A stretch of DNA of 32,000 bases, from contig JASBSB010000003.1 of assembly GCA_030149205.1 (NCBI GenBank), positions 270,001-302,000 on the forward strand. Direction: 5' to 3'. Under the pieces are notes generated by a model. It saw nothing but the letters and a program-made list of their open reading frames with translations. It was not told where the DNA came from and did no database searches. This DNA comes from Candidatus Heimdallarchaeota archaeon. Lineage in GTDB: Archaea > Asgardarchaeota > Heimdallarchaeia > Heimdallarchaeales > Kariarchaeaceae. Below are positions 2-7,579 of the stretch, one piece after another (position 1 is the stretch's first letter; each line of letters starts with the position of its first letter). A program made the position numbers and the translations under genes.

Positions 2-2629
2 AAAATTAGTTTAGAGAAAGATACCTCAATCCCAACGACCTCAATTCAGGATTATAAAGGTATTGCCTATACTTCCAACTTAGTTGGATTAAAGGTATTA
101 GACGATTCAGGAAATGGTACTCTCTCATCTGTGTTAGCCGGGGTGAACTGGGTATTGGCAAATCATAATACATATAATATCACAGTAGTAAATCTTAGTT
201 TAGGACTTGGTACTGTTTCTGTTAACTTGGATACTGCAATAAATGATTTAGCAAACGCAGGGGTGATACCTGTAGTAGCTGCGGGTAACGATGGCCCAAA
301 TGCACTAGGGGTGGGATCTCCTGGGTCTGCTGCATTAGCAATCACTGTTGGCGCTGTAAACCCTATGAATCAAATTACCTATTATAGCAGCAGAGGTACA
401 AGTTCATTTAACTCTCAAGTTATGAAGCCAGATGTACTTGCACCAGGAGGCTCAGCAGCGATACCAGGGTTAGCGGACAATTCAGCATACTTACCAGGAC
501 TTGGTGAGATAACTTCAGTTCAGTCTAATCTGCATTCAAGTCTGGGGTTATCGAAGAACAACCTACTAGACGAACAGGGTACCAGTATGGCCTCACCACA
601 TATTGCAGGATTGGCACAGGACCTAATAGGTTACTTGATTAATAATGGCACGTATGTCAAAAGTCTTGCAACTGTAAAGTTAATCAAAAATGCTATTTTA
701 GCTACAAGTTTTGAAGTAGCAAATATTTATGGTGGAGCTGAAAACTTAAATGGTGGACTGGCAGCTTCACCTACAATCGATAGGACAGGAAAAGATTATT
801 ATGAGGGATGGGGAGCAGCTAATGCTATGGCAGCACTTCAATTCCTTAAAAATTCACTAAAGGTGAACTCTGCCACTTCATTTAAATTGAGTCTATTAAA
901 TCCATTCCAACCGAAATCATATTCCGCAACCATCAATTTGATTGGAGGAACTAGTTACAATTTTACAGTAACTGTGCCCAGTGGTGCAGATGCAGATTTA
1001 TGGGTTGTTAATTCAGCTGGAAACTCGAATGGTGAACCTCAAATTTTAGCTTCAAGCACAAAAACTGGAAGTGTAAATGAATCACTGGTATTTACACCAG
1101 CACAATCAGGAGAGTATCACGTGGTGGTAAAGTTAGTTAACTCAGCAAACAGTGTGGATAATTTTGCATTATACGTTTTTGATCCTACTTATACCCCAAT
1201 TGTAGATTTCATTCAACCTTTAAATAATCATTATTATAACTCTTCCAGCCTTCAGGCTATTTTTAGCACCCCTGAAAACCTTGGTCAGATTTATTTAGAT
1301 AATGTTTTCCTTGGTTCCTCTGGTTCACCCTATCAACTACCAACTCTCACAGAAGGCGGTCATAATTTGACTGTTTGGACATCTAACCCTAGAACCGGTA
1401 AATCTGCAGGGAATACATCATTGTTCACCATCGATATTACAAAACCCACCCTTACTGGAAATCTAACGAATCTAAACACAGATAAGAATTTTATAGTGAC
1501 ATACTCGTCAACTGATAATTTTGCCATGGCAAATGTCTCACTGTATTTAGGAGGCACTTTAGCAGCCAGCTCAAATACTCCCTCTGGTAGTTTGACTGTG
1601 AATGTAGCCAGCTTTCCTCCAGGTACATACACAATGAACTTGGTCGCGATAGATAAAGCAGGAAATACAAAATCAATAACTGCAACTTTAGTATTAACAC
1701 ATGAAATTTACTTTGTTCCCAAACCAAGTGACATATTAGAATGGAGGAGTTCACCACAAACAATTACTTGGGAGGTCTACTCAAATAAACCTAAAAGTTA
1801 TAGTATATCTATTGATGGAACTAATATTATCAATAAAGTAACATGGGATGGAAAACCAATCTCATTTACTCATAACTTTACCAAGCTAGGAAACTTTGTG
1901 TTAAACCTCACAGTAACAACAACCACAGGAATTACACAGAAGATATTTACTGCTTTAACTATAAGAGACACACTTCCACCTCAGATTAGTGCAAATCTTA
2001 ATCCTGGGATATATGACGCAAGCAATTCTTATGATTTAACCTTCACATATAAAGAACCTTTCCCCTCATCAGTGAGTGTTCTCAAGGATAGTCAGACATT
2101 GGTTAGTATAAGCCCCTGGGATGGAAATCTAAATTTCTTGCCAATCAAACTTTCAAGTTCAAAAATTGGGATTACAGAGAATTATGTTATAAAAATCACC
2201 GATAGTTCAGGAAATACAGGTACTTCCTTACTCCCTATTGAATGGAGAGATTTAACCAAACCTCTTATTGAAAACATTACAAATGTGTTGATATCGAACA
2301 ATGAGTTAACGTACAAGTTTAGAGTTTATGATAAGTTTTTGGCAAATGTAAATGCCAGCTTCAATGACAAATTAGTTTTCTCAAATCCCACACCTAAAAT
2401 TAATGATACCTACACCATAAACGTTAAGAATTTACAGCCAGGATCATATACAATAAACATATTTGCAGATGACCTGGGTGGAAATCTTGTTCAAAAATTA
2501 ATTTCCTTTAAGCTAAACAAGATTTCATCCTCAGCCAACGCTGGGTTCCTTGAGATTGGAGTTTTACCATTGATTTTTAGCGGGTTACTAATTATTCTAA
2601 TTTACAACTATCACCGAAGAAGAAATTGA
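2..2629 (+). CDS. S8 subtilisin-like serine protease, 5'-truncated by the window edge; followed by a PPC-like domain, Ig-like repeats and a C-terminal AGF-TM-basic anchor
   Basis: The frame is open from base 2 (KISLEK...YKGIAYTSNLVGLKVLDDSGNG), so the ORF-track start at 131 is not the true start. Oxyanion motif AAGNDGP and catalytic Ser motif GTSMASPH are present; catalytic Asp and His lie upstream of the window. Repeated DxTxP Ig-like boundaries; tail SSSANAGF-hydrophobic-RRRN. Confidence 0.93.
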   Translation, partial: KISLEKDTSIPTTSIQDYKGIAYTSNLVGLKVLDDSGNGTLSSVLAGVNWVLANHNTYNITVVNLSLGLGTVSVNLDTAINDLANAGVIPVVAAGNDGPNALGVGSPGSAALAITVGAVNPMNQITYYSSRGTSSFNSQVMKPDVLAPGGSAAIPGLADNSAYLPGLGEITSVQSNLHSSLGLSKNNLLDEQGTSMASPHIAGLAQDLIGYLINNGTYVKSLATVKLIKNAILATSFEVANIYGGAENLNGGLAASPTIDRTGKDYYEGWGAANAMAALQFLKNSLKVNSATSFKLSLLNPFQPKSYSATINLIGGTSYNFTVTVPSGADADLWVVNSAGNSNGEPQILASSTKTGSVNESLVFTPAQSGEYHVVVKLVNSANSVDNFALYVFDPTYTPIVDFIQPLNNHYYNSSSLQAIFSTPENLGQIYLDNVFLGSSGSPYQLPTLTEGGHNLTVWTSNPRTGKSAGNTSLFTIDITKPTLTGNLTNLNTDKNFIVTYSSTDNFAMANVSLYLGGTLAASSNTPSGSLTVNVASFPPGTYTMNLVAIDKAGNTKSITATLVLTHEIYFVPKPSDILEWRSSPQTITWEVYSNKPKSYSISIDGTNIINKVTWDGKPISFTHNFTKLGNFVLNLTVTTTTGITQKIFTALTIRDTLPPQISANLNPGIYDASNSYDLTFTYKEPFPSSVSVLKDSQTLVSISPWDGNLNFLPIKLSSSKIGITENYVIKITDSSGNTGTSLLPIEWRDLTKPLIENITNVLISNNELTYKFRVYDKFLANVNASFNDKLVFSNPTPKINDTYTINVKNLQPGSYTINIFADDLGGNLVQKLISFKLNKISSSANAGFLEIGVLPLIFSGLLIILIYNYHRRRN

Positions 2630-2690: not shown

Positions 2691-4397
2691 TTAGGGATGT
2701 CTAAATACATAGGTATCAGAGTGAACCAATGCGTCAACAACCCAGCCACCTTCTGCTAAGTATTTAACATAAAAGGGGTAGAGATCAAGTTTATACTTAG
2801 GGATCACTGCATAGTTATAACCACTAGAGAATTGAGAATCGAAGACTGATTTTGCAGTAAGTGGGAATTGCTCGTTAAAATTAACCCAAAAGACGCTCAC
2901 ATTCCTGTGAAGGTAAGTAAAGGCACCTGTCCAAAACCACTTTTCAACAATAATGACACCTTTTAGATTGACAGCAACCCTGTTAATATGTTCTAATGCT
3001 GCGTTTGTCCCCTCATTAAATGTCACTGGAGCTGTAGAGGGGTTATAAAATGAACCTATACTCGTCAACGCAAACAATACCATGAGAAAAAAGACGAGAT
3101 AAGTTTGTAAATCAAAACTCGGTCTCTTTAATCGAGATTTGGGTACTGATGAAGAATTGTTTCCCTTTTCTTTCACAATATATGTAATCATAAAGATAAA
3201 CTGAGCCAAAATAATCAGGAGAAGAACCGATAGGTTTGAAACAAATCTCTCCTCTTTGTGACTCATAGATTCCCAAAAAAACGGTAATGATCTCCAAGGT
3301 GACTCATAAATCAGCCAGGCAAGGACAAGCATTAAGAACGTCATGTCCAAATTTTTTCTTTGAGTTCTAATGACTTCATTAAAATCAAACATACTAGGCT
3401 TGAATAAACGGATTAAATAGTAAATCAGAATTGAACTAACCCATAATAACAACCCAGGCTTATACACCAGGTAGTATGCATAAGCTCCAAAGGGAACCAA
3501 ACCAAAGATGTCTGAGTATGACTTAATGATGTTAAATCTAAACCATTGGAGTGGAACCGTCCCAAAGTCAACAATACTGGTGGAATGATAAAGGATAAAA
3601 TCCAATGACATTCCTAAGATCCAACCTAGTAGCATTAACAACCCAATTTTAACCCATTTTGTCATATACACCTTGACTTGTCTTTGATATCTAAATAGGT
3701 AAATCATCAAGAAAAAGCTAGCCAGTAGAATTAGAAGGTCAAGACGGGTATAGGTGACAACCCCAAGACAAAAAATTACAATTAAAGAATCCCGAGCCTT
3801 AATTTCATGATCAGATTTTAAGTATTTTAGAACTACATATAACCCGAAGAAATACTCTGGTAGAAACACAGTGTTATACAGCAACCTAGTGCTAAAATAC
3901 AAAAGCCTCCAATTTATTGCCACCATAAATCCGGCGAGGTATCCAATTTTCTTATTTTCTGTCACTTCTGTGGTTAATTTGTAAACTGCTGGAATTAATA
4001 GGATCGAATTAAATGCTGCTGTTAAATGAATCAATGTAAGAGTTCCATCATAATAATCCAGATGTAAGAAAGTCCCAATACGGAACATTATACTAATCAG
4101 AAATGGTAAGACCCAAGAACGAGATCTTGCATACTCTGGTATACCTGGATTTGTCTGCTGAAATTCAGCAGGAACATACCCGTATCCAAATGCAAGATAA
4201 TGGCCCATCTCTATACTTTGAAAGACTTCATCAGGGTGAGTCATCCCAGTGTATACTATAGAGACCAATATTCTAACCAAAGAGCCAATTACAAATCCAA
4301 AAACATACAAGGAAAAGAAAGGATTATTTTTTATAAATTGAATTGAAAGTTTAGAATTGAGTGTGTCACTCTCAGAAACTCTTGATTCAATGTCCAT
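2691..4397 (-). CDS. PIG-B/Alg9-like (GT22, GT-C fold) polyprenol-phosphate-mannose-dependent mannosyltransferase
   Basis: Multi-pass membrane protein. HPDEVFQSIEMGHYLAFGYGY...RSWVLP matches the PIG-B first luminal loop (PDEYWQSLEVxHxxVFxYGY...RSYxxP); HKEERF matches the HKExRF motif; C-terminal soluble domain TGAFTYLHRN. Confidence 0.82.
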   Translation of the reverse strand: MDIESRVSESDTLNSKLSIQFIKNNPFFSLYVFGFVIGSLVRILVSIVYTGMTHPDEVFQSIEMGHYLAFGYGYVPAEFQQTNPGIPEYARSRSWVLPFLISIMFRIGTFLHLDYYDGTLTLIHLTAAFNSILLIPAVYKLTTEVTENKKIGYLAGFMVAINWRLLYFSTRLLYNTVFLPEYFFGLYVVLKYLKSDHEIKARDSLIVIFCLGVVTYTRLDLLILLASFFLMIYLFRYQRQVKVYMTKWVKIGLLMLLGWILGMSLDFILYHSTSIVDFGTVPLQWFRFNIIKSYSDIFGLVPFGAYAYYLVYKPGLLLWVSSILIYYLIRLFKPSMFDFNEVIRTQRKNLDMTFLMLVLAWLIYESPWRSLPFFWESMSHKEERFVSNLSVLLLIILAQFIFMITYIVKEKGNNSSSVPKSRLKRPSFDLQTYLVFFLMVLFALTSIGSFYNPSTAPVTFNEGTNAALEHINRVAVNLKGVIIVEKWFWTGAFTYLHRNVSVFWVNFNEQFPLTAKSVFDSQFSSGYNYAVIPKYKLDLYPFYVKYLAEGGWVVDALVHSDTYVFRHP

Positions 4398-4452
4398 ATA
4401 AGCGACATAATTTAATTGACTTAAGGGTATTTTTGTTACAACCTAGTTTGCT

Positions 4453-6909
4453 TCATTCATCTGATTCAAATTTAACTTTTACTGTAAAATCTGTGATATC
4501 TAACTTTGCATCCTCCTGAAAAGTTGTAGAAAACTCAAATATCCCATGCATGGCTTTTATATCTGCTTCTAGTTTGATAAGTGGGGTGGGGATGTTTGCA
4601 AACCTAAGTGATGAGCGTAGAGATATACCATTCTCTTGTTTTAATTTCCAGATAGCACTGTTATATTCAACAAGTAAATCTGTTACATTGTTATCAAAAT
4701 CAATTTCAACTAACTCTGGGAACAACGATTTGTGTACACTTTTATCAAAGAGTTCTCTATAGATGTAATCTGTGATAAAGGGAGTAATTGGTGCAATTAA
4801 CCTAATTATTGCATCTAAACACGTATACAGAGTCAGTTTTGCTCCTTTTGACTCAAGTTCACTAAACTGACCATTACGATTGTATGCTCTTGATTTGACT
4901 AGCTCCATATATTGGGAAGCGAATAAGTCTGTTGTAAATTTTCTAATACTCCTTGTCGCAGGATGGAAGTCAAAGGAGGTATATCCTGCAAGAGATTCCG
5001 TAATAGTGTTATTTAATTCACTTAAAATCCATTTATCCGTGTTTTGAAGTTCACCGGATTCAGGACGGTCAAAGCTGGCAATAAAGCGAGAAATGTTATA
5101 TAATTTATTAAGAAATTTAGAACCACCCTTCAACCTTTCTTCTGAAAATCTTATGTCGGACCCTACTGAAGCTTCCATACACCCAAAGAATCTAAGGGCA
5201 TCTCCTCCATATCTTTCAAGCATTATTTCAGGGTTAACAGAATTTCCCTTTCTTTTGCTCATTTTTTCCCCTGATTCTGTTACAACATGTCCTGAAATCC
5301 ATGCATGTTGAAAAGCTGGTTTATCAAAGAGCTGGTGAATTCGAAGCATGGTATAGTGGAACCAAGTTCTTACTATATCCTTACCTTGAGGACGCATGTT
5401 TGCCAGATAAGGTCTAGTTGAAGCAATATTGATTAGCTTATCAGTCTCGATGTTGTTGGGATATTTTGTTACATAATAAGCTGATATGCTTGAATCTACC
5501 CAAGTATCAAATGTTCTTTCATCCCCTCTGAATTTCTTGTTTCCACATTTTTCACATTTTTCAAATGGAGGATCGTCTTTCCATGGTTGATAGTAAGGGC
5601 CTGGAGGAGGAACCATAGGATGTTCACATTTTGTACAGTACCAAACGGGGACCTCAGTCCCATAAAACCTTCTTCTAGAAATTGGCCAGTCTATTGAGAC
5701 CCTATCTAACCAATTCATCCAAATTTGCTTCATGAAATCTGGGTGAAATTCGACCTTCTCACTGTATTCTCTAAGTGTTGGCACAAATTCATTCTGTTTG
5801 AGATAGTATTCTTTCATTCCAATAAACTCAATCGGAGCACCTGAACGTTCCGATACAGGAAATCTATAGGGTACTACTTTTTCACCTACAATGGCTCCAA
5901 TTTCTCTTAACCTTTTAACAATTTTCTCCCTACCCTCCTTTATTTTCATCCCAGCAAACTCTCCAGTCTGTTCTGTCAATCGTCCATTGGTATCAATTGC
6001 ATATACTGGGTCTAAATCAAATTCTCGTATCACTCTAACATCCTGAATATCACCGTATGAGCAAATTTGAACAATACCGCTTCCAAATTCTGGATCAGCC
6101 ATTGGATGCTTTCTAATTTTTACAGATATATTCCAAAGGGGAATAATCGCAGTCTTACCTTCGAGCTGTGAGTATCTATTGTCCTCTGGATTGAACACAA
6201 TTGTTCTAATCGCAGGGATTAACTCGGGTCGAGTTGTAGAAAAATGGAATTTTTCATTTGTCTCTTTTATTCTGAATTGGATATCATAGAGTGGGTGCTC
6301 TCCCTCTTCATATTCAATCTCAGCATCTGCAACTGTTGTTTGAAGTCTATAGTCCCAATTATTAGGCCGATCATCTTCATATACCAATCCCTTCTTCCAA
6401 ACCTCTATGAACGTCTCCTGAGTTAACGCACGATATTGAGGGTCATCTGTTCTGTAAACAGAATCCCATTCAAAGGAGTTTGCACTTAATCCTAGCTTGT
6501 AAGCCACATCTAGAACTGCTTTCCCATATTTGTTCAGAATTTTTTGACAGAGATCCAAAAAGTCAGCTCTCGGTACATTGTGCATGTTAACTTTGAATTC
6601 TTTTTCTGCGGCAATTTCTATAGGAAGACCGTTTCTATCCAACCCCATCGGGAAATGAACCGAATGACCCTTCATTCGCATGATTCGAGCAATCATATCT
6701 ATTTGAGAATAATGAATTGCACCACCCATGTGCCATGGAGCATTTGTATAAGGAGGAGGAGTGTCAATTGTAAAAAGAGAGGATTGATCCGTTATGGTAT
6801 CAGGGTTGAACTGATATAACCTCTCATCTTGCCACAAATTGAATATTTCCTCTTCTTGTATTTTGAAATTATACTTCTTTTTTGACAATCTCTTTTTCTC
6901 TTTTGACAT
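4453..6909 (-). CDS. valS: Valyl-tRNA synthetase, archaeal type
   Basis: TIDTPPPY...HMGG (HIGH), GEKMSKRKGN (KMSKS), DWPISRRRFYGTEVPVW, FDTWVDSS. ATG at 6909 preferred over TTG at 6915. Confidence 0.96.
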   Translation of the reverse strand: MSKEKKRLSKKKYNFKIQEEEIFNLWQDERLYQFNPDTITDQSSLFTIDTPPPYTNAPWHMGGAIHYSQIDMIARIMRMKGHSVHFPMGLDRNGLPIEIAAEKEFKVNMHNVPRADFLDLCQKILNKYGKAVLDVAYKLGLSANSFEWDSVYRTDDPQYRALTQETFIEVWKKGLVYEDDRPNNWDYRLQTTVADAEIEYEEGEHPLYDIQFRIKETNEKFHFSTTRPELIPAIRTIVFNPEDNRYSQLEGKTAIIPLWNISVKIRKHPMADPEFGSGIVQICSYGDIQDVRVIREFDLDPVYAIDTNGRLTEQTGEFAGMKIKEGREKIVKRLREIGAIVGEKVVPYRFPVSERSGAPIEFIGMKEYYLKQNEFVPTLREYSEKVEFHPDFMKQIWMNWLDRVSIDWPISRRRFYGTEVPVWYCTKCEHPMVPPPGPYYQPWKDDPPFEKCEKCGNKKFRGDERTFDTWVDSSISAYYVTKYPNNIETDKLINIASTRPYLANMRPQGKDIVRTWFHYTMLRIHQLFDKPAFQHAWISGHVVTESGEKMSKRKGNSVNPEIMLERYGGDALRFFGCMEASVGSDIRFSEERLKGGSKFLNKLYNISRFIASFDRPESGELQNTDKWILSELNNTITESLAGYTSFDFHPATRSIRKFTTDLFASQYMELVKSRAYNRNGQFSELESKGAKLTLYTCLDAIIRLIAPITPFITDYIYRELFDKSVHKSLFPELVEIDFDNNVTDLLVEYNSAIWKLKQENGISLRSSLRFANIPTPLIKLEADIKAMHGIFEFSTTFQEDAKLDITDFTVKVKFESDE

Positions 6910-6921
6910 ATTCAAAACTAC

Positions 6922-6997: not shown

Positions 6998-7579
6998 CTA
7001 AAACAATCCATTTTCCTCTAGTTTCTCTATTATAAATTTGAAAATATCTTCAACATTCTCCCCACTTTTTGCTGAAGTTCTAACTAAGGTAATTCGATCA
7101 TCAAATTTGCTTTTATACTCTTCAAACTTCTTTAAAACCCTTTTTTCATTAACAATTTGAATATCATCAGAGTTTGATTTAATAAGATCTAGCTTGTTTC
7201 CTACCAAAACAATTGGAATAGATTCTACTGTTTCATAACCAACCTCATTTGTAACTTCCTCTATCCAATTATCTAGATGATCAAAGGAATCTGGGTCTAC
7301 CAGACTAAAGATCAGAACTATGGCATTTAAATCATCATAATATAATCTCCTAACTGCCTGAAAATCCTTTTGACCTGCAATGTCCCAGATTTGTAAAACT
7401 ATATTGCTCACCCCACGGTTGATTCGTTTTACTGCAAAATCTGCTCCCACAGTCAGAGAATAACTCTGTGCAAAATTATCCCCAAAATAACTCTTTCTGA
7501 TACTGGTTTTACCAACTCTTGCATCTCCTAAAAGAATTACTTTTAATTGAACTGTGAGTGGTTCATCGAACACAAACAA
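6998..7579 (-). CDS. Rab-like small GTPase (Ras superfamily)
   Basis: G1 GDARVGKT, G2/RabF1 TVGADF, G3 LQIWDIAGQ, G4 GNKLD, G5 TSAK. TTG start preceded by GAGGAG. No C-terminal Cys. Confidence 0.93.
   Translation of the reverse strand: MFVFDEPLTVQLKVILLGDARVGKTSIRKSYFGDNFAQSYSLTVGADFAVKRINRGVSNIVLQIWDIAGQKDFQAVRRLYYDDLNAIVLIFSLVDPDSFDHLDNWIEEVTNEVGYETVESIPIVLVGNKLDLIKSNSDDIQIVNEKRVLKKFEEYKSKFDDRITLVRTSAKSGENVEDIFKFIIEKLEENGLF

What the first reader, a model, noticed from the sequence alone, without database searches (positions are those of the whole stretch)
2691..4397. PIG-B-like mannosyltransferase beside a C-terminally anchored surface protein: candidate proto-GPI or glycolipid anchor pathway
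Seen: PDEVFQSIE...GYGY...RSW and HKEERF motifs; the gene is convergent with an xGF-CTERM protease and co-oriented downstream of valS. Known: eukaryotic PIG-B/Gpi10 adds the third GPI mannose, which carries the ethanolamine-phosphate bridge to protein; archaeosortase substrates receive an ethanolamine-containing archaeal lipid. Inference: this enzyme may mannosylate a lipid or lipid-linked glycan used for the envelope proteins. Caveats: Alg9/PIG-B-like proteins also occur in bacteria, and adjacency alone is weak evidence.
Basis: partly seen in the sequence, partly recalled or inferred. Interest (0 to 1): 0.75.

Follow-up and report, generated by a model that had tools for sequence, protein, structure and literature searches.

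The report
Heimdallarchaeial ALG9/PIG-B-family membrane mannosyltransferase gene
This is a real, intact archaeal relative of the eukaryotic ER mannosyltransferases (ALG9, ALG12, PIG-B), most likely adding mannose to surface glycans on the outer face of the membrane; nothing ties it to a GPI-like protein anchor.

Summary
Window 2691-4397 (-) encodes a 568-aa polytopic GT22 protein (Pfam PF03901, 95 bits). It carries the HPDEVFQSIE, RSW and HKEERF motifs, lies downstream of valS and is convergent with an S8 protease that ends in AGF, a transmembrane segment and RRRN.

The residues that do catalysis and donor binding in human ALG9 are all conserved. The AlphaFold model (pLDDT 93.9) matches ALG12 and ALG9 best.

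The genome is a Heimdallarchaeia-type Asgard archaeon. Within the phylum sample, GT22 occurs only in this class and is patchy even within one genus. In my trees the protein sits in a Heimdall-only clade, apart from the Myxococcota and cyanobacterial homologues.

The proto-GPI reading is not supported. Nine GPI-pathway families gave no significant hit. The C-terminal signal is accounted for by a heimdallarchaeosortase gene, which is also present in 14 of 15 relatives that lack GT22. The protease adjacency is limited to two genera.

The most likely role is polyprenyl-phosphate-mannose-dependent extension of an envelope glycan, probably the N-glycan. AglB and a DPM1-like synthase are both present.

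I could not obtain PIG-B, PIG-Z or ALG12 sequences, so the "PIG-B-like" label is untested. Published large-scale analyses already link eukaryotic lumenal glycosyltransferases and GPI synthesis to Asgard archaea. The scan has also noted similar GT22 genes on other DNA.

The parts
2691..4397 (-). GT22 (Alg9/PIG-B family) GT-C glycosyltransferase gene, 568 aa (P0001)
   Evidence: ORF. Pfam PF03901, 95 bits. AF2 pLDDT 93.9. Foldseek top hits are ALG12 9s6t and ALG9 9s6s/9s6u.
4209..4238 (-). First outer-loop motif HPDEVFQSIE (residues 54-63). D56 aligns with the catalytic base D82 of human ALG9.
   Evidence: In the profile-to-PDB alignment the D82A position of chain 9s6s falls on the D of the DE motif. 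D56 and E57 are 90% or more conserved in 118 sequences. The role of D82 is given in PMC13503287.
4119..4121 (-). R93 (ARSRSW), counterpart of the donor-phosphate ligand R112 of human ALG9
   Evidence: R93 is nearly invariant. HMMER offsets the RS(W/Y) motif by a few residues, so this correspondence is inferred from the motif.
3531..3533 (-). N289, counterpart of the donor-orienting N288 of human ALG9
   Evidence: Aligned. Invariant in the Heimdall clade and 90% or more conserved overall.
3243..3260 (-). HKEERF motif (residues 380-385). H380 and R384 are counterparts of ALG9 H366 and R370.
   Evidence: Aligned with the HKEERF of 9s6s. R384 is invariant and H380/K381/E382/F385 are 90% or more conserved. 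Roles are given.
2694..3044 (-). C-terminal alpha/beta domain (residues 452-568) after the last transmembrane helix, predicted to face outward
   Evidence: AF2 secondary structure. The K/R-rich loop 409-431 before the last helix places it outside. The domain is present in 117 of 118 aligned homologues. Its orientation is inferred.
4398..4452 (-). 55-bp spacer between the valS stop and the GT22 start, containing an A/T-rich TTAAATTA element about 12-20 nt before the ATG
   Evidence: Sequence. Whether the gene has its own promoter or is read through from valS is not resolved.
4453..6915 (-). Upstream co-oriented class I aminoacyl-tRNA synthetase (read as valS). This neighbour is specific to this genome.
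   Evidence: Pfam tRNA-synt_1 plus Anticodon_1. In relatives L020-L024 the upstream neighbour is a Dak2/FakA-like gene instead.
2..2629 (+). Convergent S8 subtilase surface protein (5' end outside the window) with 16 N-x-S/T sequons and a C-terminal AGF-TM-RRRN signal (2522-2629)
   Evidence: Pfam Peptidase_S8 plus Ig-like domains. Tail sequence. Sequon count. Homologous protease convergent with GT22 in L020, L021, L024 and L121.

Best explanation
The gene encodes a GT22-family GT-C(A) membrane glycosyltransferase of a Heimdallarchaeia-type Asgard archaeon. By analogy with ALG9 and ALG12, it takes mannose from a polyprenyl (dolichyl) phosphate-mannose donor on the outer face of the cytoplasmic membrane and transfers it, with inversion, to a glycan acceptor.

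The proposed residue roles are:
- D56 in the first outer loop acts as the catalytic base.
- R93 and R384 hold the donor phosphate.
- N289 and H380 orient the mannose.

The acceptor is most likely the N-glycan of surface proteins, either lipid-linked after flipping or already attached to protein, in the way AglS acts in Haloferax. That would make this an accessory, lineage-variable glycan-decorating enzyme.

It is not part of the C-terminal anchoring machinery of the neighbouring protease. That job belongs to a heimdallarchaeosortase encoded elsewhere in the genome.

Shown: family, fold, conserved catalytic residues, distribution and absence of detectable GPI genes. Inferred: donor sugar, membrane side and acceptor.
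For: Family and fold:
- PF03901 at 95 bits.
- Profile hits to ALG9 (4.9e-28) and ALG12 (7.7e-25) in the PDB.
- AF2 pLDDT 93.9, pTM 0.93.
- Foldseek ranks ALG12, then ALG9 twice, then STT3/AglB/PglB, ArnT and PMT.

Active site:
- ALG9 D82, N288, H366 and R370 align with D56, N289, H380 and R384. R112 corresponds to R93 by motif.
- The functional roles come from PMC13503287.
- All five positions are 90% or more conserved across 118 homologues.

Topology:
- The HPDE loop follows TM1.
- The K/R-rich loop 409-431 puts the C-terminal domain outside.

Pathway context in the same genome:
- AglB/STT3 at C2:535032-537314 (171 bits).
- A 240-aa GT2 whose best solved relative is Pyrococcus Dol-P-Man synthase 5mlz, E 7e-19.

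Accessory nature:
- Single copy here.
- Present in 26 of 41 relatives, but in only 8 of 19 genomes of genus g11, and missing from two one-contig genomes.
- Restricted to one class of the phylum.

Independence from anchoring:
- Heimosortase is present in 14 of 15 GT22-negative relatives.
Against: - No biochemical data exist for any prokaryotic GT22, so donor sugar and acceptor are extrapolated from eukaryotic enzymes that share only about 14% identity.
- Gene neighbourhoods give no consistent glycosylation operon. Neighbours are MoxR/DUF58, Dak2, ETF, EamA, a sulfotransferase or housekeeping genes, depending on lineage.
- myo-Inositol-1-phosphate synthase (two copies) and five PIG-L-family genes are present, so an inositol-glycolipid acceptor is not excluded.
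- The eukaryote-derived HMMs for GPI proteins had no positive control among prokaryotic genomes, so divergent homologues could have been missed.
Confidence: 0.6

Rival explanations
1. Glycolipid mannosyltransferase: the enzyme extends a membrane glycolipid, for example a glycosylated archaetidylinositol or another free GPI-like lipid, rather than the N-glycan. It would have no role in attaching proteins.
For: - PIG-B and PIG-Z belong to the same GT22 family.
- Two myo-inositol-1-phosphate synthase genes and five PIG-L-family deacetylase genes are present.
- JGI labels close metagenomic relatives of the broader prokaryotic group 'phosphatidylinositol glycan class B' or 'GPI mannosyltransferase 3', but these labels are automatic.
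- Published large-scale analyses tie eukaryotic GPI synthesis to Asgard and Myxococcota, the same two groups that hold the nearest homologues here.
Against: - No PIG-M or PIG-V, which add the first two mannoses that PIG-B would extend, and no significant PIGA-domain hit.
- PIG-L and inositol-phosphate synthase are widespread and not specific to GPI (controls).
- The subfamily position relative to PIG-B is untested.
Confidence: 0.15
2. One reading: a proto-GPI pathway in which this enzyme builds a mannose-containing bridge used to lipid-anchor xGF-CTERM proteins such as the adjacent protease.
For: - GT22 and a homologous S8 protease with a C-terminal signal are convergent neighbours in five genomes of two genera, although the upstream side has been rearranged.
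- Several proteins with PGF-like tails exist in the genome.
Against: - No transamidase subunits, EtNP transferase, PIG-M/V or GWT1 were detected.
- A heimdallarchaeosortase is present and occurs in nearly all relatives whether or not they have GT22.
- The adjacency is missing in genera g2-g4 and in every other family.
- Convergent genes cannot be co-transcribed.
- From established knowledge of Haloferax ArtA, archaeosortase anchoring needs no glycan bridge.
Confidence: 0.04
3. A different outer-face acceptor: protein O-mannosylation, or a secreted or capsular polysaccharide, or a donor sugar other than mannose.
For: - GT-C(A) relatives include PMT, ArnT and DPY19, which have protein or lipid A acceptors.
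- NCBI names some archaeal members 'glycosyltransferase family 39'.
- In genus g11 the gene is followed by a sulfotransferase and lies near an EamA transporter.
- Earlier follow-ups of bacterial GT22 genes in this scan proposed varied envelope targets.
Against: - The residues that select mannose in ALG9 and ALG12 (N288 and H366 equivalents) are conserved.
- The nearest solved folds are ALG12 and ALG9, not PMT or ArnT.
Confidence: 0.2

Closest known systems
ALG9 and ALG12 (eukaryotic ER-lumenal Dol-P-Man mannosyltransferases, CAZy GT22; PDB 9s6s, 9s6u, 9s6t)
   Same: - Same Pfam family and GT-C(A) fold.
- The same catalytic Asp in the first outer loop, the same HKEERF motif, and the same Asn, His and Arg donor ligands.
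- The active site is predicted to face away from the cytoplasm.
   Different: - Only about 14% identity.
- In the tree ALG9 is a long outgroup branch (2.65 substitutions per site), not a sister.
- It would act at the archaeal cell membrane, not the ER.
- The acceptor is unknown, and no ALG3, ALG6 or ALG8 partners are detectable apart from one weak PMT_2/ALG3-like protein.
PIG-B/Gpi10 and PIG-Z/Smp3 (GPI mannosyltransferases III and IV, also GT22)
   Same: - Same family.
- From memory only, the HPDE-x-FQS-x-E form of the first-loop motif resembles PIG-Z/Smp3 and PIG-B more than the DE-x-FNYWEP form seen in the ALG9 sequences I retrieved.
   Different: - No reference sequences could be retrieved, so orthology is untested.
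- The rest of the GPI pathway was not detected in this genome.
Bacterial and DPANN GT22-like proteins (Myxococcota, Nostocales, Chloroflexota, Spirosoma; Nanoarchaeota and Parvarchaeota)
   Same: The motifs, overall length class and C-terminal alpha/beta domain are shared.
   Different: The window's protein sits in a separate clade that is Heimdallarchaeia-only among prokaryotes (UFboot/SH-aLRT 100/99). The bacterial sequences form their own 100/99 clade.
AglS of Haloferax volcanii (archaeal Dol-P-Man mannosyltransferase that adds the last N-glycan mannose outside the cell)
   Same: The proposed mode of action is the same: mannose from Dol-P-Man is added on the outer face to an N-glycan (described in PMC4973528).
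   Different: AglS is described there as having no obvious evolutionary relationship to the eukaryotic lumen glycosyltransferases, so this is a functional analogy only and was not tested here.
Heimdallarchaeosortase system (NCBIfam NF045528)
   Same: It is the known kind of machinery for C-terminal xGF-TM-basic signals such as the one on the neighbouring protease, and it is present in this genome.
   Different: It is unrelated to GT22 in sequence, lies on a different contig, and its distribution is independent of GT22.

Membership tests
GT22 / Pfam PF03901 (Alg9-like mannosyltransferases) | Sequence match to the family model above the curated cut-off, over its full length | tested here: met
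   95.1 bits against a cut-off of 23.8; profile positions 9-414 of 414.
GT22 / Pfam PF03901 (Alg9-like mannosyltransferases) | GT-C(A) polytopic fold most similar to solved GT22 enzymes | tested here: met
   AF2 pLDDT 93.9. Foldseek ranks 1-3 are ALG12 9s6t and ALG9 9s6s/9s6u, TM-score 0.57-0.66.
GT22 / Pfam PF03901 (Alg9-like mannosyltransferases) | Catalytic base Asp/Glu in the first outer loop (HsALG9 D82) | tested here: met
   D56 aligns with the D82A position of 9s6s and is 90% or more conserved.
GT22 / Pfam PF03901 (Alg9-like mannosyltransferases) | Donor ligands (HsALG9 R112, N288, H366, R370) | tested here: met
   R93 (by motif), N289, H380 and R384.
GT22 / Pfam PF03901 (Alg9-like mannosyltransferases) | Uses dolichyl/polyprenyl-phosphate-mannose as donor | not testable with these tools
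   Only indirect support: a DPM1-like GT2 (best PDB hit 5mlz, E 7e-19) is encoded in the genome.
PIG-B (GPI mannosyltransferase III) orthologue | Groups with PIG-B rather than ALG9, ALG12 or PIG-Z in a GT22 phylogeny | tested here: inconclusive
   Only ALG9 references could be retrieved. The trees show a Heimdall-only clade with ALG9 as a distant branch.
GPI-anchor biosynthesis and attachment pathway | PIG-M (PF05007) and PIG-V (PF04188), which add mannoses 1 and 2 | tested here: not met
   No match at E <= 0.1 in the own genome, which is 93.5% complete. For PF04188 no control genome gave a hit.
GPI-anchor biosynthesis and attachment pathway | Ethanolamine-phosphate transferase (PigN, PF04987) and inositol acyltransferase (GWT1, PF06423) | tested here: not met
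   No match. No control genome gave a hit for either model.
GPI-anchor biosynthesis and attachment pathway | Transamidase subunits GPI8 (PF01650), Gaa1 (PF04114), PIG-U (PF06728) and PIG-T (PF04113) | tested here: not met
   No match at E <= 0.1.
GPI-anchor biosynthesis and attachment pathway | PIG-A (PF08288) and PIG-L (PF02585), the first two steps | tested here: inconclusive
   PIGA domain: only a 15-bit hit in a frame with stops. PIG-L family: five genes, but the family also hits 9 of 14 control prokaryotes.
Functional module with the neighbouring xGF-CTERM protease | Conserved linkage or co-occurrence with the sorting system | tested here: not met
   The adjacency is found only in g1 and one g5 genome. 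Heimosortase is present in 14 of 15 GT22-negative relatives.

The most novel reading that the evidence does not exclude
The Heimdallarchaeia-only GT22 clade could be the direct archaeal forerunner of the eukaryotic lumenal GT22 enzymes. In the cell it could mannosylate a free inositol-archaeol glycolipid, a GPI-core-like lipid not linked to protein. That would mean outer-face Dol-P-Man mannosylation of an inositol lipid predates the ER. The evidence leaves this open: inositol-phosphate synthase and PIG-L-family genes are present, the clade does not nest in bacteria, and the position relative to PIG-B and PIG-Z is untested.
Probability: 0.08. Interest if true: 0.8.

Novelty: new member of a known kind. 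Interest (0 to 1): 0.35.

Why it matters
Older work described ALG3/9/12 and the GPI mannosyltransferases as apparently unique to eukaryotes (PMC4973528; 10.1101/2024.10.30.621208). A conserved, catalytically intact GT22 clade confined to Heimdallarchaeia, the class usually placed closest to eukaryotes, gives a concrete gene for testing whether outer-face Dol-P-Man glycan extension existed in the archaeal ancestor.

Recent large-scale analyses already assert this Asgard link in general terms (PMC12872458 and 10.64898/2026.05.08.723234). What this report adds is the gene-level detail: residues, clade structure, patchy distribution and independence from the sortase system. It does not add a new kind of system.

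For annotation, the practical message is that the gene should not be read as evidence of GPI anchoring in archaea.

Tried and rejected
P0001 alone gave 5 hits, a 39-sequence profile gave 18 and the animal-group profile gave 3. None returned PIG-B, PIG-Z or ALG12 references; only ALG9 orthologues came back. The GT22 subfamily question therefore stays open.
- The three cluster look-ups gave few names.
- The single-sequence PDB search found nothing; profiles were needed.
- Pfam Exosortase_EpsH (PF09721) found no sortase, whereas TIGR04178 and NF045528 did. That negative was a sensitivity artefact.
- NCBIfam found no model for the C-terminal 50 residues of either S8 protease.
- The ESM Atlas feature search returned only bacterial GT22 and PMT_2 clusters, so it gave no subfamily information.
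- The 386-aa GT2 with three C-terminal transmembrane segments is not clearly a Dol-P-Man synthase; its best PDB hit is only E 2.5e-6 to a generic GT2.
- Neighbourhood analysis across 38 Asgard loci gave no conserved glycosylation operon.
- No RNA holder was listed for the gene among public runs.
- I considered and rejected assembly contamination as the source of the animal GT22-like sequences: they lie on scaffolds of 118 kb to 67 Mb.
Full report
**What is there**

Window 2691-4397 (- strand) is an intact 568-aa ORF, P0001. It matches Pfam PF03901 (Glyco_transf_22, the Alg9-like mannosyltransferase family) at E 7e-27 and 95 bits over the whole profile.
- HPDEVFQSIE at residues 54-63
- GYGY
- ARSRSW
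- SHKEERF at residues 380-385

The co-oriented upstream gene (4453-6915) is a class I aminoacyl-tRNA synthetase read as valS. The convergent gene (2-2629, + strand) is an S8 subtilase with Ig-like repeats and 16 sequons. It ends in SSSANAGF, a hydrophobic segment and HRRRN.

**Organism**

A Ras/Rab-family GTPase lies two genes away (Pfam Ras, E 2e-40). The closest GT22 loci in named genomes are Heimdallarchaeota, Hodarchaeota and 'Promethearchaeota' MAGs. The window is G000:C7:270001-302000 of a 3.3-Mb, 12-contig genome that is 93.5% complete. The DNA is held by a sediment metagenome, possibly the source of the assembly, and in part by a hydrothermal-vent metagenome.

**Is the enzyme intact?**

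A profile of the Heimdall clade hits human ALG9 (9s6s) and chicken ALG12 (9s6t) in the PDB. In that alignment:
- The D82A position of the ALG9 construct falls on D56.
- N288 falls on N289.
- The HKEERF of ALG9 (H366, R370) falls on H380 and R384.
- R112 corresponds to R93 of the RSW motif, with a small HMMER offset.

The structure paper assigns D82 as the catalytic base, R112 and R370 as phosphate ligands, and N288 and H366 as the residues that orient the donor mannose (PMC13503287). All five positions are 90% or more conserved across 118 homologues.

The AlphaFold2 model built on that alignment has pLDDT 93.9 and pTM 0.93. Its best Foldseek matches are ALG12, then ALG9 twice. STT3/AglB/PglB, ArnT, DPY19 and PMT follow, which is the GT-C(A) class.

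The HPDE loop follows the first transmembrane helix. The K/R-rich loop 409-431 precedes the last helix. Together these put the active-site loops and the C-terminal alpha/beta domain (452-568) on the outer face; this orientation is inferred. The C-terminal domain is shared by 117 of 118 homologues, so it is not a peculiarity of this gene.

**Distribution**

The gene is single-copy here. It occurs in all 11 other genomes of the family and in 26 of 41 relatives. It occurs in only 8 of 19 genomes of genus g11 and is missing from two one-contig genomes.

In a 301-genome sample of the phylum, clear hits are confined to the window's class:

| Family | Genomes with GT22 | Note |
|---|---|---|
| f1 | 8/8 | window's class |
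| f2 | 13/27 | window's class |
| f4 | 3/3 | window's class |
| f5 | 5/19 | window's class |
| f6 | 9/9 | window's class |
| f7 | 1/2 | window's class |
| f11 | 0/71 | other class |
| f14 | 2/92 | other class; marginal hits only |

Outside Asgard, the nearest homologues are in Myxococcota, Nostocales, a Dehalococcoidia MAG and DPANN archaea.

**Phylogeny**

Three tree runs agree: a 97-row quick tree, a 49-row quick tree and the finished careful search on the same 49 rows (LG+C20+F+G4 PMSF).
- The window's protein lies in a clade that is Heimdallarchaeia-only among prokaryotes (100/99).
- The bacterial sequences form their own clade (100/99).
- That bacterial clade groups loosely with DPANN-type sequences and a second Heimdall type.
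- ALG9 is a long, distant branch.

I could not obtain PIG-B, PIG-Z or ALG12 sequences because the homologue searches were exhausted. 'PIG-B-like' as opposed to simply 'GT22' remains untested.

**The proto-GPI idea**

In the window's own genome there is no match at E <= 0.1 for:
- PIG-M and PIG-V
- PigN
- the C13 peptidase GPI8
- Gaa1 and PIG-U
- GWT1
- Gpi16/PIG-T

. The PIGA domain gives only a 15-bit hit in a frame with stops. Five PIG-L-family genes and two inositol-1-phosphate synthase genes are present, but both families are common in prokaryotes. One caveat applies: several of these eukaryote-derived models had no prokaryotic positive control.

The C-terminal signal of the protease has a ready explanation. 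A heimdallarchaeosortase lies at C2:524675-525403 (NF045528, 228 bits against a cut-off of 130), about 10 kb from AglB. Several other proteins carry PGF-like tails. The sortase occurs in 38 of 41 relatives, including 14 of the 15 that lack GT22 and both closed genomes without GT22. The sorting system therefore does not depend on GT22.

**Gene neighbourhood**

The convergent GT22-protease arrangement recurs in all four genomes of genus g1 and in one genome of g5. It does not recur in g2, g3, g4 or any other family. This looks like inherited local synteny, and convergent genes cannot share a transcript.

valS is a neighbour only in this genome. Relatives have a Dak2/FakA-like gene and a MoxR/DUF58 cluster upstream instead. 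Other lineages show ETF, EamA, sulfotransferase or housekeeping neighbours. Gene context does not identify the acceptor.

**Most likely function**

The enzyme is most likely an outer-face, polyprenyl-phosphate-mannose-dependent, inverting mannosyltransferase that extends an envelope glycan. I favour the N-glycan for three reasons:
- AglB is present.
- A DPM1-like GT2 is present; its best solved relative is Pyrococcus Dol-P-Man synthase (E 7e-19).
- The patchy, strain-level distribution fits a glycan-decorating enzyme better than a core anchoring step.

A glycolipid acceptor remains possible.

**Literature**

Lombard 2016 described the lumen glycosyltransferases as apparently unique to eukaryotes, and a 2024 phylostratigraphy preprint mapped them to the origin of eukaryotes. 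A 2026 Nature paper reports that lumenal monoglycosyltransferases and GPI-anchor synthesis are 'Asgard-derived' (PMC12872458). A 2026 preprint infers a chimeric Asgard plus Myxococcota origin of GPI synthesis. The evolutionary link is thus already asserted at the survey level. I found no paper that deals with this gene family in Heimdallarchaeia specifically. Earlier notes of this scan record GT22 genes in bacteria and in other archaeal genomes, including one convergent with a glycosylated protease.

**Side observation**

Long 'Mannosyltransferase' proteins of marine invertebrates are the only eukaryotic sequences identified among the named proteins in the best 150 hits. They come from Priapulus, Tubulanus, Lymnaea, Littorina, Batillaria, Elysia and Branchiostoma, and are encoded on large scaffolds. 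They nest inside the Heimdall clade (99/96). Forcing the Heimdall rows to be a clade without them costs 34 log-likelihood units (AU p = 0.021). I defined that group after seeing the tree, so the p-value is optimistic.

**Verdict**

The family assignment is supported, the GPI-anchor interpretation is not, and the PIG-B subfamily claim is untested. This is a new member of a known kind and is moderately interesting for eukaryogenesis.

Noticed in passing
Proteins P0048, P0063, P0154, P0045, P0081, P0095, P0116 (not in the window): An orphan group of 670-840-aa GT22 proteins from marine invertebrates (priapulid, nemertean, molluscs, amphioxus), encoded on large scaffolds. It nests inside the Heimdallarchaeia GT22 clade (99/96; AU p 0.021 against exclusion), together with metagenomic P0110 and P0120. 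This could be an Asgard-to-animal transfer or a relic eukaryotic paralogue.
   Followed up: partly
G000:C2:524675-525403 (+) and C2:535032-537314 (-), outside the window: A heimdallarchaeosortase (NF045528, 228 bits) lies about 10 kb from the single AglB/STT3 gene. AglB's best NCBIfam hit is the 'archaeosortase A system-associated' STT3 subfamily, but well below that model's cut-off.
   Followed up: partly
window 6998-7579 (-): A 193-aa Ras/Rab-family small GTPase (Pfam Ras, E 2e-40) sits between the Phe-tRNA synthetase beta-subunit gene and valS. This is an Asgard hallmark.
   Followed up: partly
G000:C9:58636-61179 (-), outside the window: An 847-aa polytopic protein with a sub-threshold PMT_2 match (23.7 bits) and weak ALG3-like similarity. 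It recurs in 7 of 12 genomes of the family and is probably a second uncharacterised GT-C transferase.
   Followed up: partly
G000:C7:467113-467835 (-), same contig, about 165 kb from the window: A 240-aa GT2 with no transmembrane segment. Its best solved relative is Pyrococcus furiosus dolichol-phosphate-mannose synthase (E 7e-19). From memory, lacking a membrane anchor resembles the human-type DPM1 architecture.
   Followed up: partly
L034:2161-3240 (+) and equivalent positions in L031, L035, L037-L040: In genus g11 the GT22 gene is followed about 75 bp downstream by a co-oriented sulfotransferase (Sulfotransfer_3), and an EamA-family transporter lies nearby. This may be a glycan-modification pair.
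   Followed up: no
L020:4949-5887 (+) and its counterparts in L021-L024: A Dak2/FakA-like (fatty-acid-kinase-like) gene lies directly upstream of GT22 in five related genomes, but is replaced by valS in this window.
   Followed up: no
L044 / L108 (DATKZI010000025.1): A MAG whose record calls it 'Candidatus Bathyarchaeia' falls in the same class as the window in the genome collection's grouping, and carries Heimdall-type GT22 genes. The record's taxonomic label is probably wrong.
   Followed up: no
G000:C4:470989-472373 (-): Two tandem myo-inositol-1-phosphate synthase genes, arranged the same way in all four genomes of the genus.
   Followed up: no
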